Shown here in pieces: positions 9,751 through 27,413 of a DNA stretch of 33,771 nucleotides. Where the stretch lies: positions 1-33,771 of the forward strand of contig JBEKTG010000001.1 of assembly GCA_049516275.1 (NCBI GenBank), given 5' to 3'. How positions within the stretch are numbered: position 1 is the stretch's first letter; each line of letters begins with the position of its first letter. This stretch comes from Candidatus Acidiferrales bacterium. Its GTDB lineage: Bacteria > Acidobacteriota > Terriglobia > Acidiferrales > UBA7541. The notes beneath the pieces are model-generated. The model was not told the DNA's origin. It made no database searches and saw nothing but the letters and a program-made list of their open reading frames with translations. The translations under genes and the position numbers were made by a program.

Positions 9751-9783
9751 CTACCCTGTGCGTTCCGGGGCTGTTTAGATCTC

Positions 9784-12377: not shown

Positions 12378-15300
12378 TTGGTGCCGCAGGCGTGCAACGC
12401 GAAGTTCATGCTGCTTAGCGGGGGTATCGTCATAAGCGCAAGCGCGGGATGCGGCTTTGCCGGCCAGACCAAGATACTTCGCCTCTGGGTTCACCTCAGC
12501 CTGGCGGCGGTGTGGTTCTTCCTGTGCTGCACGTTCGCTTCGGCTCAAACGCAGCCGGTGCAATCCTACGATTTGAATACGTATGTCCCCACGTTGGAAG
12601 GGCAGTGGGAGGGGATTCGCTATGCGTCGGATGGGAACGTTTATTTTGCGAGTTCCACGCAGGATGCGCACCACGGCGCTGCTTTTTTCAAATTTAATCC
12701 CAACACGAATCAGCTCACCGTCCTCGCTCCGGACATCACCGTAATTTGCGGCGAAGATCCGTACACGAATCCGCAAGGCAAGATTCACAGTGACATCGTC
12801 GAGGCGAATGGCTGGCTTTACTTCTCGACGCACTTTGCCAGCGACCTTCCTGGCGCCTACACCACCTGGACCGGATCGCACTTGATCGGTTATCAGCTGT
12901 CGACAGGGAACTTTCGCGACTTCGGAGTGATTTATCCCAACTACGATTCCTACTCCGCAGTTGGCGTTGATCCGGTGCGGAATTACATCTACGTTTTTGT
13001 AACCGGCGAGAGCGCCGGCCAAGTGTCCTACATTTTTCGCTTCGATGCAGCGACTGGCGCAAAAACCAATCTCGGCCAAGTCGGGGGAGAGTTTGCCGCC
13101 TGTTTGTGGATGTTCGTGGACCAGCGGGGTGACGCGTGGTTCTCTCCGCAATACGGGAACGGCGTTTTGTACCGGGTGGAAGGTGCCACGGGCAACATCG
13201 ATGTTTATCAAAATGAGTTGCCGCCGAACTATCTCTGGAATGAAAACGAGATCGATCCAAGCAGCAGCGATCAGGCAGGGCGCTACATCCAGTGGATGCA
13301 GCCGCTCGATGGTAATCGCGCTGTTTTCTCACTGGGCGGCGGCATGCTCTATATGTTCGACTCCAGCAAGGTGATCGGCTCCGGCCTGGAATTCACGAAC
13401 ATCCAGTGGATTGGCTACAACTACATCGGCATGGCCGTGGGCAATAATCGCGTCTTTTGGTACCAGCGGGCCAACAACGGTTACGGCCATCAGGGCGACG
13501 ACGCTCCGCCGGGCACTCCGGTCGCAGACTTTCACCTCATGAGCGTCTCGCTCGATCCCGCAACTGGCTACGCGATCACCGACCACGGCCTCATTCAGGA
13601 CCAGAATGGACGCCTGGTTTGGCGAGTGCCGAGCATGATGACGGACGGGCACTCCCGCGTGTTCATGACCGGCGATTGGTGGCTTAATCCCGGCGATGTC
13701 GGCACTCTCCAATACACCTATACGAATGGCGTCGAGTCCTATGTGCCGCTGGACCGCGGGGAGTTCTTCGCCATGGCTAGTCACGTGATCCAGGATACGC
13801 TCACCATTCAATCGACTCCGGTGGCTGGCGCGCCGATCACCGGCACTGTGACGCAGAATACGAATGCCAGCATACAGCTCGACGACGGGACCGCGGTGAC
13901 CCTCACCGCGCCGGCCACATTCACCTCCGGCAGCAAGGTCTATTCGTTCGGCAATTGGCAATTGAACGGAGTCGCGCAAGTTGGCAATACGATTTCGTTT
14001 CAGCTCAACGCCAATGCTACCGCCATCGCGGTTTACACCTATTCGAGAACTTCCACCGTGGCGGTGACGCCTCCCAGCACGACTTTATATCAAGGCCAAA
14101 CGCAGCAGTTTGCCGCAACCGTGCAGAATGTGCCGAACCAACCGGTGACATGGTCGTTGAGTCCGAATGTTGGAACCTTATCGACTTCGGGGTCTTATGC
14201 GGCACCGGTTGCCATCACCGCAGCCCAGGTCGTAGTTGTAACAGCGACGAGCACAGCCGATTCAACCCAGTCTGCCACTGCGCTCATGCAACTGGAGCCG
14301 CCGGTTTCTGTTTCCGTCGCGCCTGCGACGGCGACGCTTGGCCGCTACCAGCCTCAGCAATTCACCGCTGCTGTGCAGAATTCAACCAATCAATCGGTCG
14401 CCTGGACGATCAGCCCGGCTACCGGAACCATCTCTTCCACGGGTGTTTATCTGGCGCCGTCGACCATTGCCTCGCAAACGACGGTCACCGTAACCGCGAC
14501 CAGTGTTATGGATCCAACGAAGTTTACTGCGTCCGTCGTTACCCTGGTCCCGAGCGCGGACCATTATGTTTCTCCCACCGGTACCCCGGCGGGCGACGGA
14601 AGCATGGGCAATCCCTGGGATTTGCAAACCGCTTTGAATCAGCCGTCATCTGTCGCGCCGGGAGACATCATTTGGCTTCTCGCGGGGACCTACAAAGGCA
14701 ACTTTGTAAGTCTGCTCAACGGAACGGCCACCGCGCCGATCATAGTGCGGAATTTTAGCGGGCAGCGCGCCACTCTCGATGGCAGCGGGTGCGGATTGCT
14801 GGTGCTTACGGTCAACGGTACCTATTCGTGGTTCTGGGGATTGGAGGTCCAGGATTCCGCGGACGACCGCATCGGCTTAGGCGCGTGTCCCGCTTTTGGC
14901 GTCGGAGTATACGGCGGTCCCGGAGACCAGTTCATCAACATGGTCGTGCACGACACCGGTGAGGGCTTCAGTGCCTACAACGCGTCTCCGAGCTCCGAGT
15001 TTTACGGAAATATCGTTTACTACAACGGTTTCGTAGGCCCCACCCGCAATATGGGCCACGGGATGTATTTTCAGAACAGCACCGGGACGAAGGTCGTTGC
15101 GAATAACTTCGTCGGGGACAATGCGTTTGAAGGCATTCAAATCTATGGTAGCGGCACGGCATCCATCGTTGGTTTCAACGTAACCGGCAACACTTTGTAC
15201 GATACAGATTCGTGGCCTACTCCCAATTACCAGTACAACCTGATCATCGCCGGCGGCGCGGAGCGCCAGAATATCCAGGTGGAGAACAATTACAGCTACT

Positions 15301-18300
15301 TCCCCTCCACGGCGACCACGGGCTACGTCAACGTGGGCCAGTACACGCCGGGCCTGGACGCAACCATAACAAACAATGTTTTTGCCGGCGGCTACTCGGG
15401 CTTCAGCATGGACGGGCAGACCGGACCGGTGGTGTTCACGGGAAACGTGGTTTCCACCAACCCGGCTTCGCCGGCGACGGTCGGGATCGGGTTGTTCAGC
15501 GGGCAAAATTTCGCCGACTATGTGTGGAACAACAACACCTACTACGGCGGGGATGTCTTCTCCACAGCCGGCTACGACGGAAACAACTTTTCCGGCATTC
15601 AATACCTGACGTTCCAGGGCTGGCAGTCGTCGACAGGATTTGACTCCAATAGCACTTTTACCCCGAGCGCTCCCACGGGATCGTGGGTCTATGTGCAGCC
15701 CAATAATTACGAACCCAAGCGCGCCAATATCACGGCCTATAACTGGAACTCGGCTGCGAGCGTCAGTGCGAGCCTGTCGGGAATCCTCAGTCCCGGCGAC
15801 CAGTATGTGATCCAGGATGCGCAGAATTTTTACGGGCCGCCAGTGGCCGGCGGCATATACGCCGGGGGTTTGACGACCATCCCGATGGTTGGCTTGCCCA
15901 AGGCCGCGCCCCTTGGATTCCCGGCGCCGGCGCACACGGCGCCACAGTTTGGCACCTTCGTGGTGATGACCACCACGTCGCTCTCGCCCGTGGGGCTTTC
16001 GCCCGTCGTGGTGACGCTCCATCAAGGCCAGTCGCAAACATTTACCGCGGTAGTGCTGAACTCGCCCGGGCAAGCGGTCAACTGGTCGATCAGCCCGCAG
16101 GTAGGGAGCATTTCCAGCGCGGGTGTTTACGCTGCGCCCGCTGCGGTCGCAACGACTCAGGTGGTCACCCTTACGGCCACCAGCACCGCGGACTCAACTA
16201 AATTCGGCACCGCGACGATCACTTTGGTGAGCACTGCGAATGTAGCTTTCGTGGGTACGGACGCTCTGACGAAAGGCAATTGGCAGAATGTCTACGGAGC
16301 GAACGGATATTCCCTCGCGAACGGTCCCCAGAGCCTTCCGCCCTACGATTCGGCCTTCACGGTCCAGGGCCAGTCGAACTACACGTGGACGTCTAATACC
16401 ACCGACGTGAGGGCGCTGCAGAACGGCGCGATGCGGCTGGCGGCGGCATGGTACAGCGCCACGACCTTCAGTTTCGACGTCAATCTTACCGATGGCAACA
16501 CACACCAGATTTCGCTCTACGCGCTCGATTGGGACAACTATGGCGGCGGAAGAACGGAAAAGGTGCAGGTCATCGACGTAGGAACAAACACTGTTCTGGA
16601 CACTCGCACGATTTCCGCTTTCAACAACGGGATCTACCTGGTCTGGAATATATCGGGGCACGTAAAGATCCTCGTCACCAACACCGGATCGAACGCCGTG
16701 CTGAGCGCGGTGTTCTTCGACCCGGTGTCTACCGGTAAGATCACGCCGACGATCACGTGGACCACGCCGGCGCCCATCGCGCAGGGCATCGCGCTTAGCG
16801 CCACACAGCTGGATGCGGTGGCGACCGTAAGCGGGACGTCCATCGCAGGCACCTTCGCCTATAACCCAGCCGCGGGTGCCGTGCTCGGCTCCGGGACCCA
16901 AACGCTGTCCGTGACGTTCAATCCCAGTGACACGACGGATTACCAGGCGGCGAGCGCCACCGTCACGCTGACCGTGAATCCGGGCGCGCCTAGCGCGCAG
17001 GCGAGCTTTGTTGGCTCCGATACCACCACGCAGGGAAGCTGGAGGGTCAAGTACGGAGCAGATGGATTTGCCATTGCGAACGACTCTCAGAGCCTTCCCA
17101 GCTATGATCCGACTTTTGCGCCGGCGGGACAGTCGAACTACACGTGGGCCAGTTCCACGACCGACCCCCGGGCGCTGCAGAACGGCGCGAACACGGGAAG
17201 AATCGCGGCGACATGGTTCAGCACCTCAAGCTTCAGCTGTGACGTCAATTTGACCGATGGAAAGACGCATCAGGTCGCGCTGTACGCGGTGGATTGGGAC
17301 AACTACGGCGGACGCGCCGAAAACGTGCAGATACTGGACGCGGGAACAGGAACGTCGCTTGACCAGCGCAGCATTTCGCAGTTTGTTAACGGCGTCTACC
17401 TGATCTGGAGCATCTCCGGGCACGTGAAGATCAACGTCGTGCTGACGGGCGGCGGGAATGCCGTGGTGAGCGGGGTATTCTGGGGCGGGGCGAGCACGAC
17501 GCAGATCACGCCTACTCTTTCCTGGGCCGCCCCGGCTGCGATTACTTACGGGGCTGCGCTGAGCGGTACGCAGTTGAATGCCGCCGCCAGCTACGGGGGG
17601 GCGGGTGTGCCGGGTTCCTACGTTTACACGCCCGCGGCGGGGGCGGTTTTGGGAGCGGGAAGCCAGACGCTATCGGTCACGTTCACCCCGACTGACAACG
17701 TGACTTACAAGCCGGTCAGCACTACCGCTTCGCTGGTGGTGAATCAGGCTGTGCCGGTGATCTCCTGGGCTACGCCGGCCCCGATTACCCAGGGCACTGC
17801 CCTGAGCGGCACTCAACTGGATGCTACGGAGACCGCGAATGGTTCGGCGATCGCCGGGAGTTTTGTCTATACGCCCGCGTTGGGAGCTGTGCTGGGCTCG
17901 GGGAGCCAGACTTTGTCGGTGACTTTTACGCCGTCTGACACCATGGACTATAAGCCGGCTAGTGCGACGGTGATGATTGCCGTCAACGCGGCGGTATCCG
18001 TCAGCGCGCAGGCGAGCTTTGTTGGATTCGACACGGCCACGCAGGGCACCTGGAAGGGGAAATACGGCACCGATGGCGATTCGATCGCTAACGATTCGCA
18101 GAGCCTTCCCGGCTACGCGGCATTTTCAATGCTGAACCAGTCGAACTACACATGGCTACCGAGCTCCACCGATCCGCGCGCGCTGCAGATGGGTAGCGGG
18201 ACCGGAAGAATCGCGGCCACGTGGTTCAGCGCCTCGTCGTTTACGTTCGATGTGAATCTCACGGATGGGGGCACGCACCAGATTGCGTTGTATGCTCTCG

Positions 18301-19274
18301 ACTGGGATACATATCTCGGAGGGCGTGCGGAAACGGTCGCCTTGCAGGACGCGAGCAGCGGCACGGTGCTGGACTCGCGGGCGATTTCCGCATTTACAAA
18401 TGGGATTTATCTGGTGTGGAACGTTTCCGGGCACGTGAAGATCGTGGTCACCAACAGTAAGAGCGGAAACGCCGTGGTGAGCGGAATATTCTTCGGGGCG
18501 GCGCCGCAGACGGCTCCTTCGTTCACAAGCGCTCCGGCGGCGGCGTTCACGATCGGATCGCTGGGAACATTTAACGTCACGGCGGCGGGCAATCCAGCGC
18601 CCTCGATCACCGAGAGCGGAACGCCGCCCAGTTGGTTGAACTTTAACCCGACTACGGGCGCGCTGAGCGGAACGCCGCCGAGCGGAACCAACGGGATGTA
18701 CACTCTGATGTTCAGCGCGAGCAACGGCGTCGGAGCGAATGCTTCGCAGACGTTCACTTTGACGGTGAACTTGGCCCCGGCGGGCGCCACGGCAAGCTTC
18801 CAGGGAACCGACACAGCGACGCAGGGGAACTGGCAGGGCAAGTATGGCGGAACTGGGTACTCGCTGGCGAACGGGCCGCAGAGCCTTCCGAGCTTCGATC
18901 CTACTTTTTCGGTTTCGGGCGGGTCGAACTACACTTGGGCGTCGGGCACGGCCGATGTGCGGGCGCTGCAGGACGGGTCGGGAAGGCTGGCGGCGACCTG
19001 GTTTAGCGCGACCAACTTTAGCTTCGACATAAACCTCACGGATGCCAACACGCACCAGGTGGCTCTGTACGCGCTGGATTGGGACAACTACCTCGGCGGC
19101 CGGGCCGAGGTGGTGCAGGTGATGGACGCGAACAGCGGAGCCACGCTGGACACCGAATCGATCTCCGCATTTACCAACGGAATTTACCTCGTATGGAATG
19201 TCTCGGGGCACATCAAGATCGTGGTTACGGTGAGCAGGGGAAACGCCGTGATCAGCGGCGTCTTCTTCAAATAA
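12378..19274 (+). CDS. Giant secreted multidomain protein 1 (about 2290 aa). Order: signal peptide, beta-propeller-like head, beta-sandwich, 2x Big_2, right-handed beta-helix, Big_2, then [A module / Ig-like spacer] x4
   Basis: Single uninterrupted 6.9-kb frame. Signal peptide KILRLWVHLSLAAVWFFLCCTFASA/QTQ. The track start is GTG 12378 and the first ATG is 12408. Domain order was read directly from the translation (see the sub-features). The protein ends with an A-module copy (NAVISGVFFK-stop). Confidence 0.93.
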   Translation: MVPQACNAKFMLLSGGIVISASAGCGFAGQTKILRLWVHLSLAAVWFFLCCTFASAQTQPVQSYDLNTYVPTLEGQWEGIRYASDGNVYFASSTQDAHHGAAFFKFNPNTNQLTVLAPDITVICGEDPYTNPQGKIHSDIVEANGWLYFSTHFASDLPGAYTTWTGSHLIGYQLSTGNFRDFGVIYPNYDSYSAVGVDPVRNYIYVFVTGESAGQVSYIFRFDAATGAKTNLGQVGGEFAACLWMFVDQRGDAWFSPQYGNGVLYRVEGATGNIDVYQNELPPNYLWNENEIDPSSSDQAGRYIQWMQPLDGNRAVFSLGGGMLYMFDSSKVIGSGLEFTNIQWIGYNYIGMAVGNNRVFWYQRANNGYGHQGDDAPPGTPVADFHLMSVSLDPATGYAITDHGLIQDQNGRLVWRVPSMMTDGHSRVFMTGDWWLNPGDVGTLQYTYTNGVESYVPLDRGEFFAMASHVIQDTLTIQSTPVAGAPITGTVTQNTNASIQLDDGTAVTLTAPATFTSGSKVYSFGNWQLNGVAQVGNTISFQLNANATAIAVYTYSRTSTVAVTPPSTTLYQGQTQQFAATVQNVPNQPVTWSLSPNVGTLSTSGSYAAPVAITAAQVVVVTATSTADSTQSATALMQLEPPVSVSVAPATATLGRYQPQQFTAAVQNSTNQSVAWTISPATGTISSTGVYLAPSTIASQTTVTVTATSVMDPTKFTASVVTLVPSADHYVSPTGTPAGDGSMGNPWDLQTALNQPSSVAPGDIIWLLAGTYKGNFVSLLNGTATAPIIVRNFSGQRATLDGSGCGLLVLTVNGTYSWFWGLEVQDSADDRIGLGACPAFGVGVYGGPGDQFINMVVHDTGEGFSAYNASPSSEFYGNIVYYNGFVGPTRNMGHGMYFQNSTGTKVVANNFVGDNAFEGIQIYGSGTASIVGFNVTGNTLYDTDSWPTPNYQYNLIIAGGAERQNIQVENNYSYFPSTATTGYVNVGQYTPGLDATITNNVFAGGYSGFSMDGQTGPVVFTGNVVSTNPASPATVGIGLFSGQNFADYVWNNNTYYGGDVFSTAGYDGNNFSGIQYLTFQGWQSSTGFDSNSTFTPSAPTGSWVYVQPNNYEPKRANITAYNWNSAASVSASLSGILSPGDQYVIQDAQNFYGPPVAGGIYAGGLTTIPMVGLPKAAPLGFPAPAHTAPQFGTFVVMTTTSLSPVGLSPVVVTLHQGQSQTFTAVVLNSPGQAVNWSISPQVGSISSAGVYAAPAAVATTQVVTLTATSTADSTKFGTATITLVSTANVAFVGTDALTKGNWQNVYGANGYSLANGPQSLPPYDSAFTVQGQSNYTWTSNTTDVRALQNGAMRLAAAWYSATTFSFDVNLTDGNTHQISLYALDWDNYGGGRTEKVQVIDVGTNTVLDTRTISAFNNGIYLVWNISGHVKILVTNTGSNAVLSAVFFDPVSTGKITPTITWTTPAPIAQGIALSATQLDAVATVSGTSIAGTFAYNPAAGAVLGSGTQTLSVTFNPSDTTDYQAASATVTLTVNPGAPSAQASFVGSDTTTQGSWRVKYGADGFAIANDSQSLPSYDPTFAPAGQSNYTWASSTTDPRALQNGANTGRIAATWFSTSSFSCDVNLTDGKTHQVALYAVDWDNYGGRAENVQILDAGTGTSLDQRSISQFVNGVYLIWSISGHVKINVVLTGGGNAVVSGVFWGGASTTQITPTLSWAAPAAITYGAALSGTQLNAAASYGGAGVPGSYVYTPAAGAVLGAGSQTLSVTFTPTDNVTYKPVSTTASLVVNQAVPVISWATPAPITQGTALSGTQLDATETANGSAIAGSFVYTPALGAVLGSGSQTLSVTFTPSDTMDYKPASATVMIAVNAAVSVSAQASFVGFDTATQGTWKGKYGTDGDSIANDSQSLPGYAAFSMLNQSNYTWLPSSTDPRALQMGSGTGRIAATWFSASSFTFDVNLTDGGTHQIALYALDWDTYLGGRAETVALQDASSGTVLDSRAISAFTNGIYLVWNVSGHVKIVVTNSKSGNAVVSGIFFGAAPQTAPSFTSAPAAAFTIGSLGTFNVTAAGNPAPSITESGTPPSWLNFNPTTGALSGTPPSGTNGMYTLMFSASNGVGANASQTFTLTVNLAPAGATASFQGTDTATQGNWQGKYGGTGYSLANGPQSLPSFDPTFSVSGGSNYTWASGTADVRALQDGSGRLAATWFSATNFSFDINLTDANTHQVALYALDWDNYLGGRAEVVQVMDANSGATLDTESISAFTNGIYLVWNVSGHIKIVVTVSRGNAVISGVFFK
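12546..13787 (+). other. Domain: beta-propeller-like head of giant protein 1
   Basis: Repeated blade-like strands: DGNVYFASS, NGWLYFSTHF, NYIYVFVTGE, YIFRFDAATG, GVLYRVEGATG, GMLYMFDSS, NRVFWYQRA, SRVFMTGDWW. No specific family was recognised. Confidence 0.5.
14043..14555 (+). repeat. Two tandem Big_2-like (bacterial Ig-like group 2) domains
   Basis: VAVTPPSTTLYQGQTQQFAATVQNVPNQPVTWSLSPNVGTLSTSGSYAAP...VTATS, and VSVAPATATLGRYQPQQFTAAVQNSTNQSVAWTISPATGTISSTGVYLAP...VTATS. Confidence 0.8.
14556..15975 (+). other. Domain: right-handed parallel beta-helix (pectate-lyase fold) with C-terminal beta-sandwich
   Basis: Typical opening HYVSPTGTPAGDGSMGNPWDLQTALN...VAPGDIIWLLAGTYKG. Coil repeats follow: INMVVHDTGEG, GNIVYYNG, ANNFVGDN, TGNTLYD, VENNYSY, ITNNVFAGG, FTGNVVS, WNNNTYYG. 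Confidence 0.8.
15999..16232 (+). repeat. Big_2-like domain
   Basis: SPVVVTLHQGQSQTFTAVVLNSPGQAVNWSISPQVGSISSAGVYAAPAAVATTQVVTLTATSTADSTKFGTATITLVS. Confidence 0.8.
16233..16721 (+). repeat. A-module copy 1 (163 aa, unassigned Trp-rich module)
   Basis: TANVAFVGTDALTKGNWQNVYGANGYS...QSNYTWTSNTTDVRALQ...AAAWYSATTFSFDVNLTDGNTHQISLYALDWDNYGGGRTE...GIYLVWNISGHVKILV...NAVLSAVFFD. Confidence 0.9.
16740..16982 (+). repeat. MBG/YG-type Ig-like repeat (1 copy, 81 aa)
   Basis: ITPTITWTTPAPIAQGIALSATQLDAVATVSGTSIAGTFAYNPAAGAVLGSGTQTLSVTFNPSDTTDYQAASATVTLTVNP. Confidence 0.75.
16992..17486 (+). repeat. A-module copy 2 (165 aa)
   Basis: SAQASFVGSDTTTQGSWRVKYGADGFA...QSNYTWASSTTDPRALQ...RIAATWFSTSSFSCDVNLTDGKTHQVALYAVDWDNYGGRAE...GVYLIWSISGHVKINV...GNAVVSGVFWG. 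Confidence 0.9.
17505..17987 (+). repeat. MBG/YG-type Ig-like repeats (2 copies)
   Basis: ITPTLSWAAPAAITYGAALSGTQLNAAASYGGAGVPGSYVYTPAAGAVLGAGSQTLSVTFTPTDNVTYKP..., and AVPVISWATPAPITQGTALSGTQLDATETANGSAIAGSFVYTPALGAVLGSGSQTLSVTFTPSDTMDYKP... Confidence 0.75.
18003..18497 (+). repeat. A-module copy 3 (165 aa)
   Basis: SAQASFVGFDTATQGTWKGKYGTDGDS...QSNYTWLPSSTDPRALQ...RIAATWFSASSFTFDVNLTDGGTHQIALYALDWDTYLGGRAE...GIYLVWNVSGHVKIVV...GNAVVSGIFFG. Confidence 0.9.
18513..18770 (+). other. Domain: putative Ig domain (He_PIG / dystroglycan-type cadherin-like)
   Basis: APSFTSAPAAAFTIGSLGTFNVTAAGNPAPSITESGTPPSWLNFNPTTGALSGTPPSGTNGMYTLMFSASNGVGANASQTFTLTVN. The LPxGLxxNxxTGxxSGTP pattern is characteristic of this domain. 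Confidence 0.75.
18783..19271 (+). repeat. A-module copy 4 (163 aa); forms the C-terminus of giant protein 1
   Basis: GATASFQGTDTATQGNWQGKYGGTGYS...GSNYTWASGTADVRALQ...RLAATWFSATNFSFDINLTDANTHQVALYALDWDNYLGGRAE...GIYLVWNVSGHIKIVV...GNAVISGVFFK-stop. Confidence 0.9.
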
Positions 19275-19701
19275 TTCAGCTGAAACTTGGCGGGAACGGG
19301 CGCTTTTAGGCAGCCATCTTGAGTGCGCGGATGGTGTTAGTGTGTCGGGTAGCGAGTACACCGGCTGTTTGTTTTGTTTTGCTTACGCTTGGTTTTACCT
19401 GATACCCCTGCTGTCCAAGTTGGGCTCACCAAGAAAATCGCCTCTCAACGCAAATCGTCGCAGAGTTCCACCGCCTCTCAAAAGCCAATTTGGACAAGAG
19501 CGAATGTTGCTGCATTACGCAAACGTCGATGGGTTGTCCTTGCTTTCTTGGTTGGGAGGCCTTAGTAAGGTTTCGTGGCACAGAGATGATTTTAGTTCCG
19601 CGATGAAGGGCCGGCACCGCGCCTTTTCCCCTCCGTGGGTGTCCGGTTATGAATGGGCAAGATCTAGAAACCTGCGAGACACATGGAGCGAAAAGTCTGT
19701 G

Positions 19702-22700
19702 ATGAGCGATCCATTTCGGGTGCTTCGCGGCGGCTGGCTCTGCATCTTGTTGATGATGGGGGCGGCTAACCTCAACGCTCAATCCGGAGGGCAGGTTCTC
19801 TATAATGGCATCGCCCTCCCCCAGCAATGGCCGCCGGTGGGAGGGCCGAGCCAGAATTACAATGTTCCTTCCTATATCACCAATCCTCCTGCCGTCATTC
19901 CCATAAATACCGGACGCCAACTGTTCGTCGATGACTTCCTAATTCAATCGACCACGTTGACGCGGACGCAGCACCAGCCGCTGATGTATCCCGGCAACCC
20001 TATCCTGACCCCGGGTTCTTCGGATACGACGGGGAACGCATTCCCTTATAGCGATGGCGTCTGGTTCGATCCAGCCACGGACCAGTTCAGGATGTGGTTC
20101 TACTGTGGAGCGGGAAACATGGTTTGTTATGCCTACTCCACAGATGGCAAGAGCTGGATTAAGCCTGCCCTGGCAAACGCGGTAACTCCCAATACGGATC
20201 AAGTGCTGGAAATTTCCCCGGCGCGCGACTCCGGCACCGTGTGGATGGACCTGGCCGACCCGAATCCGGCGCGGAAATTCAAGGCATTCATCTTCAATGG
20301 GTACGGAATCGTTGTGTACTTCTCGCCGGACGGGATCAGCTGGACTCAGCAGAGCCAGTCCCAGTATCCCGTCGGTGTGATCGACGATCGGACCACACTG
20401 TTCTGGAATCCGTTCCGGAATGTGTGGGTTGATAGCATAAAAAACTATCTTCCTCTCCCGGCTTCGGGGAGCCGTCCTGGCTACACCAGCCGCGTGCGCT
20501 ATTATGCGGAAAGTCCGGATCTGACGACCTGGACGCCCGCAGATTTTACCGACAGCTTCTGGACCGGGCCGGACGTGAACGATCCGCCATACGTCACCGG
20601 AGGACTGTACCCGCAGCTCTACAACCTGGACGCGGTCGCTTATGAAAGCGTGATCGTCGGGCTGTTCAGCTGGTATTACCCAGGACCGGCATACCCCTCC
20701 GACGATCCGAGCGGGTTGCCGGGGCCGGCGCTGGTGGAACTGGGAGCCGGGTTCAGCCGCGACGGATTTCAGTGGGTGCGTCCGACGCGGGGCAGTGGAC
20801 CCAGCAACGCCTTCATTCCGGCGTCGAACCTGTCGGGAACCTGGAACATGGGCGATACGCAGTCGGCGGGCGGGGGGTTCCTCGTCGTGGGCGATGAGCT
20901 GTGGTTCTATTTCAGTGGACGCAACGGCCCGCACGGCGTTAGTACCGTCGGGGCGACCGGTCTGGCGACATTGAGGCGCGACGGCTTTTACTCGATGGAT
21001 GCGGGTTCGACGCAGGCCGAGTTGACCACGCGTCCTGTGCAGTTCGCCGGCAACTACATGTTCGTCAATGTGAACGATCCCAGCGGTCAACTGCTGGTGG
21101 AAGTCACCGACACCAGTGGCAACGTGATCGCGCCTTACTCGAAGGCTAATTGCGTTCCGCTGAGCGTTAACAAAACGCTCCAGCAGGTTAACTGGAATGG
21201 CGCCACCGATCTTTCGAGTTTGGCGGGCCAGTCGGTGCGGTTCAATTTCTACCTCACGTCCGGAAGTCTGTACTCGTTCTGGGTGACTTCGAGCCTGTCC
21301 GGCGCGAGCAATGGATACGTTGCCGCGAATGGCCCCGGCTTTACCGGCCCGACGGATAATCAAGGCAGCGCTGCGTATCCCACCACCGTTGCCACGCCGG
21401 AGATCATTCCAGCCGGCGCGTTATTCAACAATTCCACCACCGTCACCCTTTACACCGGAACAGCGGGAGCTACCATCAACTACACGCTCGATGGTAGCCC
21501 CCCCACGGCGCTATCGCCGGTCTATACGGCGCCGTTTTCGTTGACGGCCAGCGCTACAGTCAAAGCCGTGGCCTCGGCTGCTCATATGACGACCAGTGCT
21601 ACCGCTTCGGCGGCCTTCACCAGGAATAACACCCCTCCCACTATTTCGCTCACATCCCCCGCGAATGGCCAGAGCTTGTTCGGAGCCATCACGCTATCGG
21701 CGAGTGCATCGGACGTGTTGGGAATTGCAAGCGTGCAGTTTCTCGTCGATGGAGTTTCCGTAGGAACCGTCGCCAGCGCGCCCTACACCCTGGCATTCGA
21801 TACCGCCACGTTGGCCAACACGACTCACCAGATCACTGCTGTCGCGGTTGACACGGCGGGCAACCCGGCAACTTCCAGCCCCGTGACAGTGACATTTAAC
21901 AATGTGGTCAGCGGACCGACCAGCGGGTTGGTAGGTTACTGGAGCTTCGACTCCGCCTATACGATCGGCTCGACCGTGTTCGACCAGTCCGGCAACAGCG
22001 GCAACGCTACAGCCTACTCGACTACATCCGTGCCCGGCGAAGTAGGGCAGGCACTGCAGTTCAACGGTTCCTCCAGCTATGCGCAAGTTGTTACCGGTTC
22101 CCAGGCATACGATCTTCTGAGTAATTTGAGCCTGTCTCTATGGGTACAAACCACCAATGCGAGCCGCGACGAAGCGCTGGTCAGCAAATATTCAGCGGCA
22201 GGATCGGGGTATGGCTACCTGTTGCGAACCACACCGGCCGGAACGGCGGAGCTTCTGGTTGGCGGCGCCAACGTGATATCCGGACCCGAAGTTGCTACGG
22301 ATGTGACGAAAATCAATGATGGCAACTGGCATCACCTTGCAGTCGTAATTCAATTGGGAACCAGTGTGACCTTTTATGTGGATGGCGTGCTGAGTTCAAT
22401 CGTGACCATGAATTCCGGGGCCGGCGCGGCCGCCACGTGGTTTCAGATGGGCTTGAACCCATGGTCTCCCTTCGGCACTTTCTTTACCGGCAGCATGGAC
22501 GAGGTGCGGGTTTACAACCGCGCTCTGTCCGCCAGCGACGTGCTTGCTTTGGCCGGGCCGGTGGTCGTGTCGCCCCGAAGCGCGACGCTGGTCCAGGGCC
22601 AGACCCAGCAATTCACAGCAATCGTAAAGGGCGTAACAAACCAGTCTGTGAACTGGTCCATGAGCGGGACAACGGGAAGCGTTTCGTCCGCGGGGCTTTA

Positions 22701-25563
22701 TACGGCTCCCGCCAGTGTTGCGAACAGCCAGACAATCAACGTAACGGCGACCAGTGTTGCAAACTCGTCTCTATCCGGCACGGCAACCGTTTCTCTGGTT
22801 TCCGGTGTAGCTGCTACTACGAGCTTCGTTGGATTCGATACGGTCACCCAAGGCAGTTGGCACGGAGTCTATGGAGGTGATGGGTATTCCGTGGCCGGCG
22901 ACTCGCAGAGTATTCCCTCCTACGCTACGCTTGCCGTTCAAAACCAGTCGAACTATACCTGGGCTTCCAGCACGACCGATCCACGCGCTCTGCAAACCGG
23001 CAGCAACTCGGGAAGAATCGCAGCGACCTGGTACAGCTATACAACCTTCAATTTCGACGTCAATCTCGGGGACGGAAACACTCATAGGGTTGCGCTCTAT
23101 GCCTTGGATTGGGATAACTATGGCGGAGGCAGGGCGGAGCAAATTCAGATTGTCGACGCGACCACCGGCAGCGTGCTCGATACCCGCAACATTTCGAGTT
23201 TCACGCAAGGGGTTTATCTTGTTTGGAACATTTCCGGCCACGTCAAAATCAACGTCATGTTGACGGGCGGCGGGAACGCGGTCGTCAGCGGAGTTTTCTT
23301 CGGCGGCAGTGGCGTCACTCAAAGCGCGCCGACGATTACGTGGGCGGCTCCTGCTGCCCTCACTTACGGGACCACGCTCGGCGGCACGCAGCTTGATGCG
23401 GCGGCCAGTTTCAACAACGCTGCGGTGCCGGGCAGTTTTGTCTACACGCCCGCAGCCGGCACGGTACTAACGGCTGGAAGCCACACGCTGTCGGCGACCT
23501 TCACTCCCACCGATACGATTCATTACACAACGGCCACAGCCACGGCCAGTATCATCGTCAATCAGGCTACGCCTGCCATCGCCTGGGCGGCACCTGCTGC
23601 CATCACTTACGGTACGGCGCTCAGCAGCACACAACTCGATGCGTCGGCTAGTTTCAACAACGCAACGGTGCCGGGCAACTTTGCTTATACGCCGGCATCC
23701 GGCACGATTCTCGGGGTGGGGAGCCAGACTCTTTCCGTCCTGTTCACGCCTACGGATACGACCGACTACAAGGCGGCGAGTTCTTCGGTCACGCTGGTAG
23801 TCACCAATCAAAACATCCCGGCCATTAATTGGCCAGCTTCCGCGGCCGTCACGTACGGCACCCCGCTCGGCGTCACGCAACTCGATGCGACGGCCAGTTT
23901 CAACGGCGCAACGGTGCCGGGCAGCTCTGTCTACACGCCCGCGGTCGGCACATTGCTGACGGCTGGAAGCCACACGCTGTCGGTGACATTCACTCCCACC
24001 GATACCACTCACTACGCGACGGTGACGGCTACGGTCGGCATAACCGTGAATCAAGCCGCGCCCACTATCACCTGGGCGACACCTTCGTCCATCTCCTATG
24101 GCACGGCACTCAGCAGCACCCAGCTGGATGCGTCGGCTAGTTTCAACAGCTCAACGGTGCCCGGCAATTTTGCCTATACGCCGCTGGCCGGCACGATTCT
24201 CTCGGGAGGAAACCAAACTCTGTCGGTCACTTTCACTCCTACGGATATGACGGACTACAAGGGGGCGACGGCCGCGGTCACGATTGTAGTTACGACTTCG
24301 GGCACGCCGTCGAGCCAGGCTACCTTCGTTGGCGCTGATACGGTCACGCAAGGCAATTGGCACGGCGTCTATGGAGGAGACGGCTATTCAGTAGCCGGGG
24401 ACTCACAGAGTATTCCGTCTTATGCGGCTTTCTCCATCCAAAATCAGTCGAACTATACATGGTCTTCCACCACGACCGATCCGCGGGCTCTGCAAACCGG
24501 CAGCAACCTGGGAAGAATCGCGGCAACCTGGTTTAACGGCGCAGCTTTCAACTTCAATATCAATCTGACTGACGGCAACACCCATCAGGTTGCGCTCTAT
24601 GCTCTGGACTGGGATAACTATGGCGGAGGAAGAGCGGAGCAAATTCAGATAGTCGACGCGGCGAGCAGCACCGTGCTCGATACCCGCACGATTTCCAGCT
24701 TCACTCAGGGCATTTATCTGGTTTGGGACATTTCCGGCAACGTCAAAATCAACATCACACTCACGGGCGGTGGCAACGCGGTTATCAGCGGTGTATTTTT
24801 GGGAAGCACCGCCATTGGAGTCGGCGTGAATCCGCCGAGCGTCACCCTCGCTGGCGGGCAAGCGCAGCAGTTCACAGCCCAAGTGACAGGCACTTCGAAT
24901 AAAACCGTGACGTGGTCCATCAGCCCGGCATCGGGAAGCATTTCGGCCACCGGCCAATACGCGGCTCCCGCGACAATCTCGAACGCCCAGACGGTGACCG
25001 TAACCGCCACGAGCGCCGCGAGCGGCACCGCTTTTGGCACAGCAACGGTCCAGTTGAGCACCGCCGCAGGCGCCATCGCGAGCTTCACGGGCTTCGACAC
25101 GGCTACTCAAGGCAACTGGAAAGGAGTCTACGGAGCGGACGGATACTCCATCGCCAACAGTTCCCAGAGTCTCCCCGCCTATGCTTCGGCGTTTGCGGCG
25201 CAGAATCAGTCGAACTATACCTGGGCTTCCGGCACCATCGATCCGCGGGCCCTGCAAACCGGCAGCGGCTCGGGAAGAATTGCGGCGACGTGGTTCAGCG
25301 GCACGACATTCAATTTTCTTCTCAATCTCACTGACGGAAACACGCATCGGGTCGCGGTATATGCCCTGGATTGGGACAACTACGGCCGATCGGAAACCAT
25401 TCAGGTTCTCGACGCCGCGACGAACGCCGTCCTGGACAGCCGCAGCATTTCCGCCTTCACGCAGGGAGTCTATCTGGTTTGGAATATTTCCGGCAACGTC
25501 AAGATCAACGTAACGACAACCGGCGGCCTGAATTCGGTGGTCAGCGGAGTGTTTTTCAAATAA
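19702..25563 (+). CDS. Giant secreted multidomain protein 2 (about 1953 aa). Order: signal peptide, GH32/43-clan-like propeller plus beta-sandwich, CHB_HEX_C-like, Ig-like, LamG, Big_2, A, 4x MBG, A, Big_2, A
   Basis: The frame is open from GTG 19342, but ATG 19702 (GGAG 14 nt upstream) starts a canonical signal peptide MSDPFRVLRGGWLCILLMMGAANLNA/QSGG. Domain order was read from the translation. The protein ends with an A-module copy (NSVVSGVFFK-stop). Confidence 0.93.
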   Translation: MSDPFRVLRGGWLCILLMMGAANLNAQSGGQVLYNGIALPQQWPPVGGPSQNYNVPSYITNPPAVIPINTGRQLFVDDFLIQSTTLTRTQHQPLMYPGNPILTPGSSDTTGNAFPYSDGVWFDPATDQFRMWFYCGAGNMVCYAYSTDGKSWIKPALANAVTPNTDQVLEISPARDSGTVWMDLADPNPARKFKAFIFNGYGIVVYFSPDGISWTQQSQSQYPVGVIDDRTTLFWNPFRNVWVDSIKNYLPLPASGSRPGYTSRVRYYAESPDLTTWTPADFTDSFWTGPDVNDPPYVTGGLYPQLYNLDAVAYESVIVGLFSWYYPGPAYPSDDPSGLPGPALVELGAGFSRDGFQWVRPTRGSGPSNAFIPASNLSGTWNMGDTQSAGGGFLVVGDELWFYFSGRNGPHGVSTVGATGLATLRRDGFYSMDAGSTQAELTTRPVQFAGNYMFVNVNDPSGQLLVEVTDTSGNVIAPYSKANCVPLSVNKTLQQVNWNGATDLSSLAGQSVRFNFYLTSGSLYSFWVTSSLSGASNGYVAANGPGFTGPTDNQGSAAYPTTVATPEIIPAGALFNNSTTVTLYTGTAGATINYTLDGSPPTALSPVYTAPFSLTASATVKAVASAAHMTTSATASAAFTRNNTPPTISLTSPANGQSLFGAITLSASASDVLGIASVQFLVDGVSVGTVASAPYTLAFDTATLANTTHQITAVAVDTAGNPATSSPVTVTFNNVVSGPTSGLVGYWSFDSAYTIGSTVFDQSGNSGNATAYSTTSVPGEVGQALQFNGSSSYAQVVTGSQAYDLLSNLSLSLWVQTTNASRDEALVSKYSAAGSGYGYLLRTTPAGTAELLVGGANVISGPEVATDVTKINDGNWHHLAVVIQLGTSVTFYVDGVLSSIVTMNSGAGAAATWFQMGLNPWSPFGTFFTGSMDEVRVYNRALSASDVLALAGPVVVSPRSATLVQGQTQQFTAIVKGVTNQSVNWSMSGTTGSVSSAGLYTAPASVANSQTINVTATSVANSSLSGTATVSLVSGVAATTSFVGFDTVTQGSWHGVYGGDGYSVAGDSQSIPSYATLAVQNQSNYTWASSTTDPRALQTGSNSGRIAATWYSYTTFNFDVNLGDGNTHRVALYALDWDNYGGGRAEQIQIVDATTGSVLDTRNISSFTQGVYLVWNISGHVKINVMLTGGGNAVVSGVFFGGSGVTQSAPTITWAAPAALTYGTTLGGTQLDAAASFNNAAVPGSFVYTPAAGTVLTAGSHTLSATFTPTDTIHYTTATATASIIVNQATPAIAWAAPAAITYGTALSSTQLDASASFNNATVPGNFAYTPASGTILGVGSQTLSVLFTPTDTTDYKAASSSVTLVVTNQNIPAINWPASAAVTYGTPLGVTQLDATASFNGATVPGSSVYTPAVGTLLTAGSHTLSVTFTPTDTTHYATVTATVGITVNQAAPTITWATPSSISYGTALSSTQLDASASFNSSTVPGNFAYTPLAGTILSGGNQTLSVTFTPTDMTDYKGATAAVTIVVTTSGTPSSQATFVGADTVTQGNWHGVYGGDGYSVAGDSQSIPSYAAFSIQNQSNYTWSSTTTDPRALQTGSNLGRIAATWFNGAAFNFNINLTDGNTHQVALYALDWDNYGGGRAEQIQIVDAASSTVLDTRTISSFTQGIYLVWDISGNVKINITLTGGGNAVISGVFLGSTAIGVGVNPPSVTLAGGQAQQFTAQVTGTSNKTVTWSISPASGSISATGQYAAPATISNAQTVTVTATSAASGTAFGTATVQLSTAAGAIASFTGFDTATQGNWKGVYGADGYSIANSSQSLPAYASAFAAQNQSNYTWASGTIDPRALQTGSGSGRIAATWFSGTTFNFLLNLTDGNTHRVAVYALDWDNYGRSETIQVLDAATNAVLDSRSISAFTQGVYLVWNISGNVKINVTTTGGLNSVVSGVFFK
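19786..21288 (+). other. Domain: five-bladed-propeller glycoside-hydrolase-like head plus C-terminal beta-sandwich (GH32/43/68-clan-like, family not assigned)
   Basis: GRQLFVDDFLI...GNPILTPG...SDGVWFDPATDQFRMWFYCG...YAYSTDGKSWIKP...GIVVYFSPDGISWTQ...DELWFYFSG...ATLRRDGFYSMDAG...LLVEVTDTSGNVIAPYS...LAGQSVRFNFYLTSGSLYSFWV. This resembles GH32-type propeller plus jelly-roll proteins. Confidence 0.65.
21391..21621 (+). other. Domain: chitobiase/beta-hexosaminidase C-terminal-like (CHB_HEX_C_1-like) Ig fold
   Basis: ATPEIIPAGALFNNSTTVTLYTGTAGATINYTLDGSPPTALSPVYTAPFSLTASATVKAVA. Confidence 0.65.
21904..22557 (+). other. Domain: LamG / concanavalin-A-like lectin (Laminin_G_3-like)
   Basis: GLVGYWSFDS...VFDQSGNSGNATAY...GQALQFNGSSSYAQV...LSLSLWV...NDGNWHHLAVV...VTFYVDGVL...FTGSMDEVRVYNRALSASDV. 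Confidence 0.8.
22558..22809 (+). repeat. Big_2-like domain
   Basis: PVVVSPRSATLVQGQTQQFTAIVKGVTNQSVNWSMSGTTGSVSSAGLYTAPASVANSQTINVTATS. Confidence 0.8.
22810..23304 (+). repeat. A-module copy 5 (165 aa)
   Basis: AATTSFVGFDTVTQGSWHGVYGGDGYS...QSNYTWASSTTDPRALQ...RIAATWYSYTTFNFDVNLGDGNTHRVALYALDWDNYGGGRAE...GVYLVWNISGHVKINV...GNAVVSGVFFG. Confidence 0.9.
23326..24300 (+). repeat. Four tandem MBG/YG-type Ig-like repeats (80-82 aa each) in an A-B-A-B pattern
   Basis: Unit boundaries are 23326-23565, 23566-23811, 23812-24054 and 24055-24300. Units 1 and 3 share ...AGSHTLS.TFTPTDT.HY.T.TAT..I.VNQ. Units 2 and 4 share ...YGTALSSTQLDASASFN..TVPGNFAYTP..GTIL..G.QTLSV.FTPTD.TDYK. Confidence 0.85.
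24310..24804 (+). repeat. A-module copy 6 (165 aa)
   Basis: SSQATFVGADTVTQGNWHGVYGGDGYS...QSNYTWSSTTTDPRALQ...RIAATWFNGAAFNFNINLTDGNTHQVALYALDWDNYGGGRAE...GIYLVWDISGNVKINI...GNAVISGVFLG. Confidence 0.9.
24814..25068 (+). repeat. Big_2-like domain
   Basis: IGVGVNPPSVTLAGGQAQQFTAQVTGTSNKTVTWSISPASGSISATGQYAAPATISNAQTVTVTATS. Confidence 0.8.
25069..25560 (+). repeat. A-module copy 7 (164 aa); forms the C-terminus of giant protein 2
   Basis: GAIASFTGFDTATQGNWKGVYGADGYS...QSNYTWASGTIDPRALQ...RIAATWFSGTTFNFLLNLTDGNTHRVAVYALDWDNYGRSE...GVYLVWNISGNVKINV...LNSVVSGVFFK-stop. Confidence 0.9.
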
Positions 25564-27387: not shown

Positions 27388-27413
27388 CTGCGCCGGGGTA
27401 TCCAAGGCGCGGC

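What the first reader, a model, noticed from the sequence alone, without database searches (positions are those of the whole stretch)
12378..25563. Paired giant exoprotein genes with different catalytic-looking heads and a common modular tail
Two same-strand genes separated by 427 nt occupy about 13 kb, more than a third of the window. Gene 1 carries a propeller-like domain plus a right-handed beta-helix (the fold of polysaccharide lyases and hydrolases). Gene 2 carries a GH32/43-clan-like five-bladed propeller with jelly-roll, plus a LamG lectin domain. Both then switch to the same tail grammar, an A module alternating with Ig-like spacers. This looks like a two-enzyme extracellular glycan-processing pair sharing one substrate-targeting device. 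A Crp/Fnr regulator lies immediately upstream. There are no TonB/SusCD, PEP-CTERM, T9SS or LPXTG signals, so the anchoring or export route beyond Sec is unclear.
Basis: inference. Interest (0 to 1): 0.75.

Follow-up and report, generated by a model that had tools for sequence, protein, structure and literature searches.

The report
Two exoproteins sharing an unannotated tail
Two neighbouring giant secreted proteins of a soil Acidobacteriaceae bacterium carry different enzyme-like heads. Both end in arrays of the same unannotated 160-residue sugar-binding-like domain, but that tail is a generic add-on found on many unrelated enzymes, so it does not mark a dedicated two-enzyme system.

Summary
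Gene 1 (12408-19274) and gene 2 (19702-25563) lie on the same strand, 427 nt apart.

- **Tails:** they end in 4 and 3 copies of a ~160-aa "A module", separated by Ig-like spacers.
- **Gene 2 head:** a confident five-bladed propeller plus beta-sandwich resembling GH32/GH43/GH130. It has no Pfam hit and lacks the GH32 motifs.
- **Gene 1 head:** a ~410-aa domain with only weak propeller evidence, plus a PL6-like beta-helix.
- **A module:** no Pfam, NCBIfam or PDB sequence match. Its model (pLDDT 97) is a CBM6/35-like jelly-roll. It defines a family of more than 5000 clusters in Acidobacteriota and Planctomycetota.
- **A-module position and partners:** it ends the polypeptide in about 90% of complete proteins sampled. 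It is fused to unrelated heads, most often subtilases.

- The gene pair is seen only in two closely related assemblies, and in none of 77 other loci.
- The Crp/Fnr gene is missing from a relative with 91-94% nucleotide identity.
- There is no PUL context.

Best reading: two independently assembled modular exoenzymes that share a generic, multivalent glycan-binding retention tail.

The parts
11143..11928 (+). Crp/Fnr-type regulator (cNMP-binding plus HTH_Crp_2). It is upstream of gene 1, but strain-variable.
   Evidence: Pfam hits. The segment at about 11036-12199 is absent from L002, and tblastn finds no Crp there; the gene is present in L001.
12408..12545 (+). Gene 1 start and Sec-type signal peptide (first in-frame start is TTG 12378; the likely start is ATG 12408).
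   Evidence: Translation and sequence. Homologues start their mature domain at the equivalent QxQxVQS, 20-40 residues after Met.
12546..13787 (+). Gene 1 N-terminal head ('head1N', ~414 aa). It has no Pfam family and is probably a 6/7-bladed beta-propeller with many invariant His/Asp/Glu. Elsewhere it is usually a stand-alone secreted protein of ~480 aa.
13788..14597 (+). Ig-like linker region: one InlB-B-repeat-like unit and two Big_2-like units.
   Evidence: Homologues carry PF18998 and PF02368 over this stretch.
14598..15992 (+). Right-handed beta-helix domain with a C-terminal sandwich. It is a distinct family with conserved HD and GHGHG motifs.
   Evidence: Pfam Beta_helix at E 4e-5, sub-threshold. 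Profile hit to PL6 lyase 6qps at E 1.3e-4. It recurs fused to head1N in the opposite order in other phyla.
15993..16244 (+). Big_2-like spacer.
16245..16718 (+). A module, gene 1 copy 1.
16719..17000 (+). HYDIN/ASH-type Ig spacer (81-82-aa unit).
17001..17486 (+). A module, gene 1 copy 2. This is the copy that was modelled: pLDDT 96.9, all-beta jelly-roll.
17487..18011 (+). Two HYDIN/ASH-type Ig spacers.
18012..18497 (+). A module, gene 1 copy 3.
18498..18791 (+). He_PIG Ig-like spacer.
   Evidence: PF05345, E 3.8e-10.
18792..19274 (+). A module, gene 1 copy 4. It ends the protein (...GVFFK, then stop).
19275..19701 (+). 427-nt spacer between the genes. It has no terminator-like or promoter-like consensus site and no Rfam match. 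161 nt of it (19281-19442) are missing in L002.
19702..19782 (+). Gene 2 start and Sec-type signal peptide.
   Evidence: The model shows helix 4-24.
19783..21336 (+). Gene 2 head ('head2'): five-bladed beta-propeller plus C-terminal beta-sandwich. It belongs to a large un-annotated family of stand-alone proteins of ~550 aa.
21409..21840 (+). CHB_HEX_C/Fn3_assoc and Big_7 Ig-like domains.
22066..22542 (+). LamG (Laminin_G_3, concanavalin-like) domain.
   Evidence: E 4e-25. PDB hit 4qvs.
22558..22758 (+). Big_2 spacer.
22822..23304 (+). A module, gene 2 copy 1.
23305..24318 (+). Four tandem HYDIN/ASH-type Ig spacers (243-246-nt period).
24319..24804 (+). A module, gene 2 copy 2.
24805..25077 (+). 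Big_2-like spacer.
25078..25563 (+). A module, gene 2 copy 3. It ends the protein (...GVFFK, then stop).

Best explanation
The locus encodes two separate, Sec-exported, modular exoproteins of an uncultured Acidobacteriaceae bacterium. Each was assembled by domain shuffling from three kinds of part.

1. **Heads that can stand alone.** Gene 1 carries a ~410-aa, probably propeller-type domain of unknown function and a PL6-like right-handed beta-helix. These two recur as a fused pair, in either order, in other phyla. Gene 2 carries a five-bladed propeller plus beta-sandwich of the GH32/43/130 structural superfamily, followed by a LamG domain.
2. **Ig-like spacers.**
3. **A terminal array of the A module.** This ~160-aa jelly-roll is CBM6/35-like, matches no Pfam or NCBIfam model, and almost always ends the polypeptide.

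Inferred mechanism: the repeated A modules, held apart by rigid Ig spacers, bind a repetitive glycan multivalently. The glycan could be the cell's own capsule or EPS, or an environmental polysaccharide matrix. This binding keeps the catalytic heads concentrated at that surface.

The tail is a generic retention or targeting device used by many unrelated exoenzymes. It is not a device specific to this gene pair. The adjacency of the two genes most likely reflects local duplication or shuffling of tail cassettes within this lineage.

- **Shown:** the architecture, the folds, the family sizes, the diversity of heads, the terminal position of the A module, and the lack of conserved pairing.
- **Inferred:** glycan binding, a retention role, and catalytic activity of the heads.
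For: **Architecture**
- Domain layout and repeat copies.

**A module**
- It has no Pfam or PDB sequence match and no NCBIfam match.
- The AF2 model has pLDDT 96.9 and is all-beta.
- Foldseek top hits are CBM6, CBM35, CBM36, CBM61, CBM32, CBM-like domains of Cry protoxins, receptor-binding domains of binary toxins, and the malectin-like ANXUR2 (E 1e-4 to 3e-3, TM 0.35-0.52).
- Invariant or nearly invariant residues include W14, Y18, W49, R57, H90, D98, W99 and R105.
- The family is large: 5018 representative clusters at E<=1e-3, with up to 12 copies per protein.
- It is terminal in 112 of the 150 best proteins. In 39 of 43 complete proteins, 0-4 residues follow the last copy.

**Heads on A-tailed proteins are heterogeneous**
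- Peptidase_S8 in 8 of 43 proteins.
- Also DUF7948/SBBP, NosD/Beta_helix, GH94 supersandwich, GSDH, arylsulfotransferase, pro-kumamolisin and Abhydrolase_4.

**Positional analogy to a known glycan binder**
- The gene 1 homologues P0121, P0124 and P0163 carry Malectin domains, alternating with Big_2 or He_PIG and ending the protein, exactly where gene 1 has A modules.

**Heads**
- Head2 belongs to a family of more than 5400 proteins, mostly stand-alone and ~550 aa.
- Its model (pLDDT 80.5) matches GH32, GH43, GH130 and GH62 structures.
- Invariant D118, D229, D310 and E315 lie in or just before the first strand of blades I, III and IV.
- Head1N and the beta-helix co-occur in the opposite order in Verrucomicrobiota and Saccharibacteria proteins.

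**Pairing**
- The gene pair is seen only in L001 and L002, not in the 77 other loci.
- Crp/Fnr is absent from L002.
Against: - No binding or activity data exist. The fold matches of the A module are weak (E ~1e-4, TM <=0.52), and a jelly-roll fold is not proof of glycan binding.
- hhalign of the A module against malectin gives only 1.6% probability.
- The two genes are adjacent and on the same strand, with no terminator-like site between them. Both heads have folds typical of glycan-active enzymes, so functional cooperation is not excluded.
- The ligand is unknown: own surface glycan or environmental substrate.
- The fold of head1N was not modelled.
- Only one species-level lineage holds true orthologues of the pair, so conservation of the pairing could not be tested at intermediate distances.
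Confidence: 0.6

Rival explanations
1. The two genes form a dedicated, co-transcribed two-enzyme system, for example a lyase or hydrolase plus an exo-glycosidase. It degrades one extracellular polysaccharide, and the A-module tails are substrate-specific CBMs that target both enzymes to that polymer, under Crp/Fnr control.
For: - The genes are adjacent on the same strand, 427 nt apart, with no terminator-like site between them.
- The GH-like fold of head2.
- The beta-helix with a PL6-like N-terminal cap.
- The CBM-like fold of the A module.
- The pair is retained in L001 and L002.
- Crp/Fnr lies upstream in the window and in L001.
Against: - The pairing is absent from all 77 other head1N loci.
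- A tails occur on subtilases, sedolisin, dehydrogenases and sulfotransferases.
- The Crp/Fnr gene is deleted or never inserted in L002, while both exoprotein genes remain.
- The window has no transporter, SusC/D or sugar-catabolism neighbours tied to the pair.
- The A copies of gene 1 and gene 2 are old duplicates (64-69% nucleotide identity).
- Head2 homologues are scattered orphan genes.
Confidence: 0.2
2. The terminal A module is primarily a C-terminal sorting or attachment domain. It would be recognised by an unknown export or surface-anchoring pathway of Acidobacteriota and Planctomycetota, functionally like a T9SS CTD or an S-layer anchoring domain. Under this model it is not a lectin for external glycans.
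For: - The module ends the polypeptide in about 90% of complete proteins, with 0-4 residues after the last strand.
- It is attached to many unrelated secreted enzymes, as sorting domains typically are.
- No other sorting signal is present in either protein.
- When the nearest relative is sought in other proteins, terminal copies pick another terminal copy in 43% of cases, against a 19% base rate.
Against: - Each protein carries 3-12 copies, most of them internal. Sorting domains are usually single.
- Terminal copies are not a separate clade: 72 of 105 are closest to an internal copy of the same protein.
- At 160 aa, with a CBM6/35-like fold and conserved aromatic residues, the domain fits ligand binding.
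- Malectin occupies the same position in homologues.
Confidence: 0.1
3. Both proteins are non-catalytic adhesins or lectins, for example biofilm-matrix or cell-cell adhesion proteins. Under this model the propeller, beta-helix, LamG and A modules are all binding domains.
For: - The proteins are giant, Ig-rich and repeat-rich.
- Neither head reaches the gathering score of any enzyme family.
- Beta-helix and propeller folds also occur in adhesins.
- Head1N has no detectable relationship to an enzyme.
Against: - The head2 family keeps a set of invariant Asp/Glu at blade positions matching the catalytic triads of GH32 and GH43.
- The beta-helix family keeps HD and GHGHG motifs.
- Head1N keeps many invariant His/Asp/Glu across phyla.
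- Both heads mostly exist as small stand-alone secreted proteins, which is typical of enzymes.
Confidence: 0.1

Closest known systems
Modular secreted CAZymes with appended CBM6/CBM35-type modules and Ig/Fn3 linkers (for example multi-CBM xylanases such as Xyn30D-CBM35, or CBM6-bearing enzymes)
   Same: - A catalytic-type head, Ig-like linkers and repeated beta-sandwich modules.
- The A-module model superposes on CBM6, CBM35, CBM36 and CBM61 structures.
   Different: - There is no sequence membership in any CBM Pfam family.
- The arrays hold 3-12 copies and nearly always end the protein.
- The same module is most often on proteases and other non-glycan enzymes.
- The ligand is unknown.
Bacterial malectin-domain exoproteins (PF11721), for example the Bryobacteraceae protein P0121
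   Same: - The same gene 1-type N-terminal head.
- The same grammar of binding module alternating with Big_2 or He_PIG.
- The binding module sits at the extreme C-terminus.
   Different: The A module is not demonstrably homologous to malectin (hhalign probability 1.6%).
GH32 (clan GH-J) fructanases, GH43/GH62 (clan GH-F) and GH130 phosphorylases
   Same: - Five-bladed propeller with, as in GH32, a C-terminal beta-sandwich. The top Foldseek hit is levanase BT1760 (E 5e-10).
- Conserved acidic residues at the start of blades I, III and IV.
   Different: - Only 8-15% identity.
- No Pfam GH32, GH43 or GH130 hit.
- The WMNDPNG and EC motifs are absent.
- The substrate is unknown.
PL6-type right-handed beta-helix polysaccharide lyases and NosD-like beta-helix proteins
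   Same: - An N-terminal PGDxIxLxxGxY cap motif and parallel beta-helix repeats.
- Other A-tailed proteins carry Beta_helix or NosD heads.
   Different: - The similarity is limited to about 60 residues (E 1.3e-4).
- The Pfam score is below the gathering threshold.
- The PL6 catalytic and Ca2+ residues were not mapped.
C-terminal sorting or anchoring domains of secreted enzymes (T9SS CTD, SLH, dockerin)
   Same: - A terminal position.
- Attachment to a wide variety of secreted enzymes.
   Different: - Multiple internal copies.
- A larger, CBM-like fold.
- No match to the NCBIfam or Pfam models of these signals.

Membership tests
GH32 (clan GH-J) | Five-bladed beta-propeller followed by a C-terminal beta-sandwich. 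| tested here: met
   The AF2 model has pLDDT 80.5. Foldseek aligns it over its whole length to the GH32 levanase 7znr and to invertases at E 5e-10 to 1e-8.
GH32 (clan GH-J) | Sequence membership (Pfam Glyco_hydro_32N/32C) and the WMNDPNG, RDP and EC catalytic motifs. | tested here: not met
   There is no Pfam hit for the window protein, and only 1 of 22 family members hits Glyco_hydro_32N, at E 0.09. The WMNDPNG and EC motifs are absent; only an RDS motif is present.
GH43 / GH130 five-bladed propeller enzymes | Profile-level sequence similarity and a catalytic Asp/Asp/Glu (GH43) or Asp (GH130) in the central funnel. | tested here: inconclusive
   The profile hits to GH130 structures are weak (E 0.0014 and 0.04). 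Fold hits have TM 0.57-0.65 when normalised to the target. D118, D229, D310 and E315 are invariant at blade starts, but no structural superposition was available.
CBM6 / CBM35 (galactose-binding-like jelly-roll CBMs) | Beta-jelly-roll fold superposable on CBM6/35. | tested here: met
   Foldseek hits to CBM6 (1gmm, 8j3x), CBM35 (4qb1, 2w1w), CBM36 and CBM61 at E 5e-4 to 2e-3 and TM 0.36-0.51. The similarity is weak.
CBM6 / CBM35 (galactose-binding-like jelly-roll CBMs) | Sequence membership in the family models. | tested here: not met
   None of the 7 copies has a Pfam hit even at E<=10, and the profile has no PDB sequence hit.
CBM6 / CBM35 (galactose-binding-like jelly-roll CBMs) | Demonstrated carbohydrate binding. 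| not testable with these tools
   This needs binding assays.
Malectin (PF11721) | Profile-profile homology to malectin domains. | tested here: not met
   hhalign of the A-module profile against malectin domains from P0121, P0124, P0163 and P0166 gives probability 1.6% and E 0.03.
Right-handed beta-helix polysaccharide lyase (PL6-like) | Parallel beta-helix repeats and the PL6-type N-terminal cap. | tested here: inconclusive
   Pfam Beta_helix scores 23.6 bits against a 25.9-bit cut-off. The profile hit to PL6 6qps is at E 1.3e-4 over about 60 residues only. The domain was not modelled.
Polysaccharide utilisation locus (SusC/SusD type) | An adjacent SusC-like TonB-dependent transporter and a SusD-like lipoprotein. 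| tested here: not met
   The Pfam scan of 20 neighbouring ORFs in the window shows none. The Bacteroidales head1N loci that were sampled also showed none.
Known C-terminal sorting signals (T9SS CTD, PEP-CTERM, LPXTG) | A match to the NCBIfam/TIGRFAM or Pfam sorting-signal models at the C-terminus. | tested here: not met
   NCBIfam returns 0 families for both proteins. Both C-termini are the last strand of an A module...GVFFK.
Conserved two-gene functional pair (operon-like module) | Co-occurrence of the two genes as neighbours in related genomes. | tested here: not met
   The pair is present only in L001 and L002, which are close relatives at 91-96% nucleotide identity. It is absent from 77 other head1N loci within +/-10 kb. 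No relatives at intermediate distance carrying true orthologues were available.

The most novel reading that the evidence does not exclude
A-module arrays are a previously unrecognised exoenzyme-retention system shared by Acidobacteriota and Planctomycetota. A new CBM-like family, almost always placed at the end of the polypeptide, would tether dozens of unrelated secreted enzymes (proteases, glycan-active enzymes, oxidoreductases) to the producer's own capsule or EPS. That would make it a functional counterpart of SLH, dockerin or T9SS-CTD anchoring, in phyla where surface display of exoenzymes is unexplained.
Probability: 0.2. Interest if true: 0.7.

Novelty: new member of a known kind. Interest (0 to 1): 0.38.

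Why it matters
Acidobacteriota and Planctomycetota are major degraders of soil polymers, yet it is poorly understood how they export and retain their very large exoenzymes.

This locus is a clear example of three widespread domain families that are missing from Pfam and NCBIfam:
- the A module, with more than 5000 representative clusters;
- a GH-like five-bladed propeller family, with more than 5400 proteins;
- a cross-phylum family of ~410 aa, probably a propeller.

Defining the ligand of the A module would annotate the tails of thousands of secreted enzymes at once. It would also show whether these bacteria keep their enzymes on their own surface or on the substrate.

The specific idea of a dedicated enzyme pair is not supported, so the locus itself is fairly ordinary.

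Tried and rejected
- **Direct sequence searches against PDB:** the full proteins gave nothing for either head or for the A module. Only LamG and the Ig domains hit.
- **NCBIfam:** no hits for either protein.
- **A-module profile against PDB and Pfam:** no hits even at E<=10.
- **hhalign of the A module against malectin:** not significant. Malectin membership is rejected.
- **Head1N fold:**
  - Profile against PDB gave only E 0.017 to a 7-bladed propeller-like protein.
  - A deeper cross-phylum profile gave no PDB hit at all.
  - Self-hhalign showed no internal repeats.
  - The 'propeller' call therefore rests on convergent sub-threshold Pfam hits.
- **Exact look-up of gene 2:** not on record.
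- **Neighbourhoods:** the surroundings of head2 homologues and of Bacteroidales head1N loci gave no functional clue and no PUL.
- **Short 'stand-alone' A-module proteins:** most are mis-called fragments of repeat proteins.
- **Literature:** two full-text searches found no description of the A module or the head families. The five-bladed beta-galactosidase Lac161_ORF10 (PMC5342196) is assigned by its authors to DUF377, which head2 does not match.
- **Recent gene conversion between the two tails:** rejected, because the DNA copies in gene 1 and gene 2 are only 64-69% identical.
- **Lipoprotein signal:** no lipobox fits around the Cys residues of either signal peptide (read directly from the sequences).
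Full report
**1. Observation**

The window holds two long same-strand ORFs, 12378..19274 and 19342..25563. Their translations show likely starts at ATG 12408 and ATG 19702.

A relative, L002, supports the gene 2 start. Only 36 codons are open upstream of its equivalent Met, and it lacks 161 nt of the spacer.

A ~160-aa unit, the "A module", occurs four times in gene 1 and three times in gene 2, with phmmer domain E-values of 1e-64 to 1e-109. The copies are 62-73% identical as protein and 60-82% identical as DNA. They are old duplicates, and there is no sign of recent exchange between the two genes. Both proteins stop immediately after an A module (...GVFFK*).

The spacers are 81-82-aa HYDIN/ASH-type Ig units, Big_2-like units and one He_PIG unit. 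Gene 2 also carries CHB_HEX_C, Big_7 and LamG.

**2. The heads**

*Gene 2.* Its first ~545 residues have no Pfam or NCBIfam match. They belong to a very large family of more than 5400 proteins, mostly stand-alone and ~550 aa, from Acidobacteriota, Planctomycetota, Verrucomicrobiota and Armatimonadota. NCBI labels a few of them "glycosyl hydrolase family 32".
- An AF2 model (pLDDT 80.5) is a five-bladed propeller plus beta-sandwich.
- It matches GH32 levanase and invertases over its full length (E 5e-10), and GH43, GH62 and GH130 propellers, at 8-15% identity.
- The profile hits to GH130 are weak.
- The GH32 signature motifs are absent.
- Invariant acids sit at the starts of blades I, III and IV: D118, D229, D310 and E315.
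- So it is GH-like by fold and plausibly catalytic, but it belongs to no described family and its substrate is unknown.

*Gene 1.* It has two head domains.
- Residues 57-470 form a family with no Pfam match.
- A genome scan found 127 relatives and kept 79 loci, in Acidobacteriota, Verrucomicrobiota, Bacteroidales (including rumen MAGs), Spirochaetota, Anaerolineae and others. Most encode a stand-alone secreted protein of ~480 aa.
- Evidence for a propeller fold is only weak and convergent: sub-threshold hits to SGL, Lactonase, Reg_prop, SBBP, Kelch and DUF5074, and a 7-bladed propeller-like PDB entry at E 0.017.
- A deeper profile found nothing in PDB.
- Residues 741-1205 are a right-handed beta-helix. 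The Pfam hit is sub-threshold, and the best PDB profile hit is a PL6 lyase N-terminal cap at E 1.3e-4.
- The beta-helix and the N-terminal domain recur fused in the opposite order in Verrucomicrobiia and Saccharibacteria proteins. They probably work together.

**3. The shared tail**

The A module has no Pfam, NCBIfam or PDB sequence match. An exhaustive profile search found 5018 representative clusters, with up to 12 copies per protein. One carrier is a protein of the cultured planctomycete Aquisphaera giovannonii.

Its AF2 model is very confident (pLDDT 96.9). It is a beta-jelly-roll whose nearest solved structures are:
- CBM6, CBM35, CBM36, CBM61 and CBM32;
- CBM-like domains of Cry protoxins;
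- receptor-binding domains of binary toxins;
- a malectin-like receptor domain.

These matches are all weak (E 1e-4 to 3e-3, TM 0.35-0.52). Conserved aromatic and charged residues (W14, Y18, W49, R57, H90, D98, W99, R105) are compatible with a ligand site.

Two properties stand out.
- **Terminal position.** The module ends the polypeptide in 112 of the 150 best proteins. In 39 of 43 complete ones, 0-4 residues follow it.
- **Heterogeneous heads.** Peptidase_S8 is the commonest (8 of 43). Others are DUF7948/SBBP, NosD/Beta_helix, GH94 supersandwich, glucose/sorbosone dehydrogenase, arylsulfotransferase, pro-kumamolisin and alpha/beta-hydrolase. A few proteins carry the gene 2-type head or the gene 1-type beta-helix.

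Homologues of gene 1 from Bryobacteraceae and Solibacteraceae carry Malectin domains in exactly the A-module positions. There the Malectin domains alternate with Big_2 or He_PIG and end the protein. The A module is not detectably homologous to malectin.

Terminal copies are not a separate clade. 72 of 105 are closest to an internal copy of the same protein.

**4. Context**

The source is an Acidobacteriaceae lineage. L001 is 96% identical and collinear with the window, and L002 is 91-94% identical. Both keep the gene pair.
- None of the 77 other loci with the gene 1 N-terminal domain has a gene 2-type head or an A-tailed gene within 10 kb.
- The Crp/Fnr gene lies in a 1.16-kb segment that L002 lacks entirely. 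It is not a conserved part of the locus.
- The inter-gene spacer has no terminator-like or promoter-like consensus site and no Rfam match. Co-transcription is possible but untested.
- Neighbouring genes are unrelated housekeeping or miscellaneous functions: GH15, thiolase, hydrolases, SpoIIE phosphatase, a PQQ propeller, PhyH and a methyltransferase. None is a SusC/D or TonB receptor.
- The two stand-alone head2 homologues inspected have no adjacent glycan-utilisation genes, apart from one BNR sialidase-like gene about 5 kb away.

**5. Interpretation**

The best-supported reading (confidence ~0.6) is two independently assembled modular exoenzymes that share a generic, multivalent, CBM-like tail. 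I infer that the tail binds a repetitive glycan and keeps the heads at that surface. The glycan could be the cell's own EPS or capsule, or an environmental matrix. The basis for this is the fold, the copy number, the rigid Ig spacing, the malectin analogy and the diversity of heads.

The rivals are:
The non-conserved pairing, the protease-rich head spectrum and the dispensable regulator count against it.
- **A C-terminal sorting or anchoring signal (~0.1).** The terminal position favours it. Internal copies and the lack of a terminal-specific clade count against it.
- **Purely adhesive proteins (~0.1).**

**6. Novelty and score**

The architecture (head, Ig linkers, repeated beta-sandwich modules) is a familiar kind. 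The A module and both head families are un-annotated but widespread, so this is a new member of a known kind.

Interest is moderate (0.38). The proposed pair mechanism is not supported. The A module is still worth a binding study, because one result would annotate thousands of exoenzyme tails.

Noticed in passing
window 11036-12199 (contains the Crp/Fnr gene 11143-11928), compared with L002 9640-9660: The 1.16-kb segment carrying the Crp/Fnr regulator is cleanly absent from the close relative L002 (91-94% nucleotide identity) but present in L001. The regulator is therefore an insertion/deletion polymorphism between closely related assemblies.
   Followed up: yes
window 19281-19442, compared with L002 16738-16745: 161 nt of the gene 1-gene 2 spacer are missing in L002. 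This shows that the long upstream extension of the gene 2 ORF (19342-19701) is non-coding.
   Followed up: partly
L002 9779-16728: In L002 the gene 1 orthologue is split into two overlapping ORFs (9779-13681 and 13198-16728). This is a frameshift, which could be either a pseudogene or an assembly error.
   Followed up: no
L056, L063, L064, L065, L071, L076, L077 (about 7100-9885 in most): In rumen and gut Bacteroidales MAGs, the stand-alone homologue of the gene 1 N-terminal domain is always immediately preceded, on the same strand, by a conserved ~900-aa ORF. These ORFs are 49-86% identical to one another. The one scanned (L056) has no Pfam hit, and none shows BLASTP similarity to gene 1. This is a possible functional partner of that domain family.
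   Followed up: partly
L016, L019-L022, L006 (and proteins P0125, P0141-P0146): The beta-helix and the gene 1 N-terminal domain occur fused in the reverse order (beta-helix first) in Verrucomicrobiia, Saccharibacteria-binned and other Acidobacteriota contigs. This suggests a two-domain functional unit.
   Followed up: partly
P0303 (WP_148596404.1, Aquisphaera giovannonii): A cultured planctomycete encodes a 2548-aa protein with 12 A modules. It is annotated 'TAP-like' and 'dockerin type I repeat-containing', and could serve as an experimental handle for the A module.
   Followed up: no
window 25564-27405 (-): A 613-aa PQQ/BamB-like beta-propeller protein is encoded convergently. Its ORF ends at the base next to the gene 2 stop codon, so there is no intergenic space at all.
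   Followed up: no
window 29846-29922 (-): tRNA-Pro (TGG). It is the only RNA gene detected in the window.
   Followed up: yes
window 3837-5705 (-): A GH15 glucoamylase/trehalase-like gene (Glyco_hydro_15 plus TREH_N). It is the only enzyme in the window that is classifiable as a CAZyme, and it is unlinked to the pair.
   Followed up: no
window 14598-15992 (beta-helix family alignment A6): The beta-helix family keeps invariant HD and GHGHG-type motifs (H118-D119 and H154 in domain numbering). This hints at a metal or active site that differs from the classical pectate-lyase residues.
   Followed up: no
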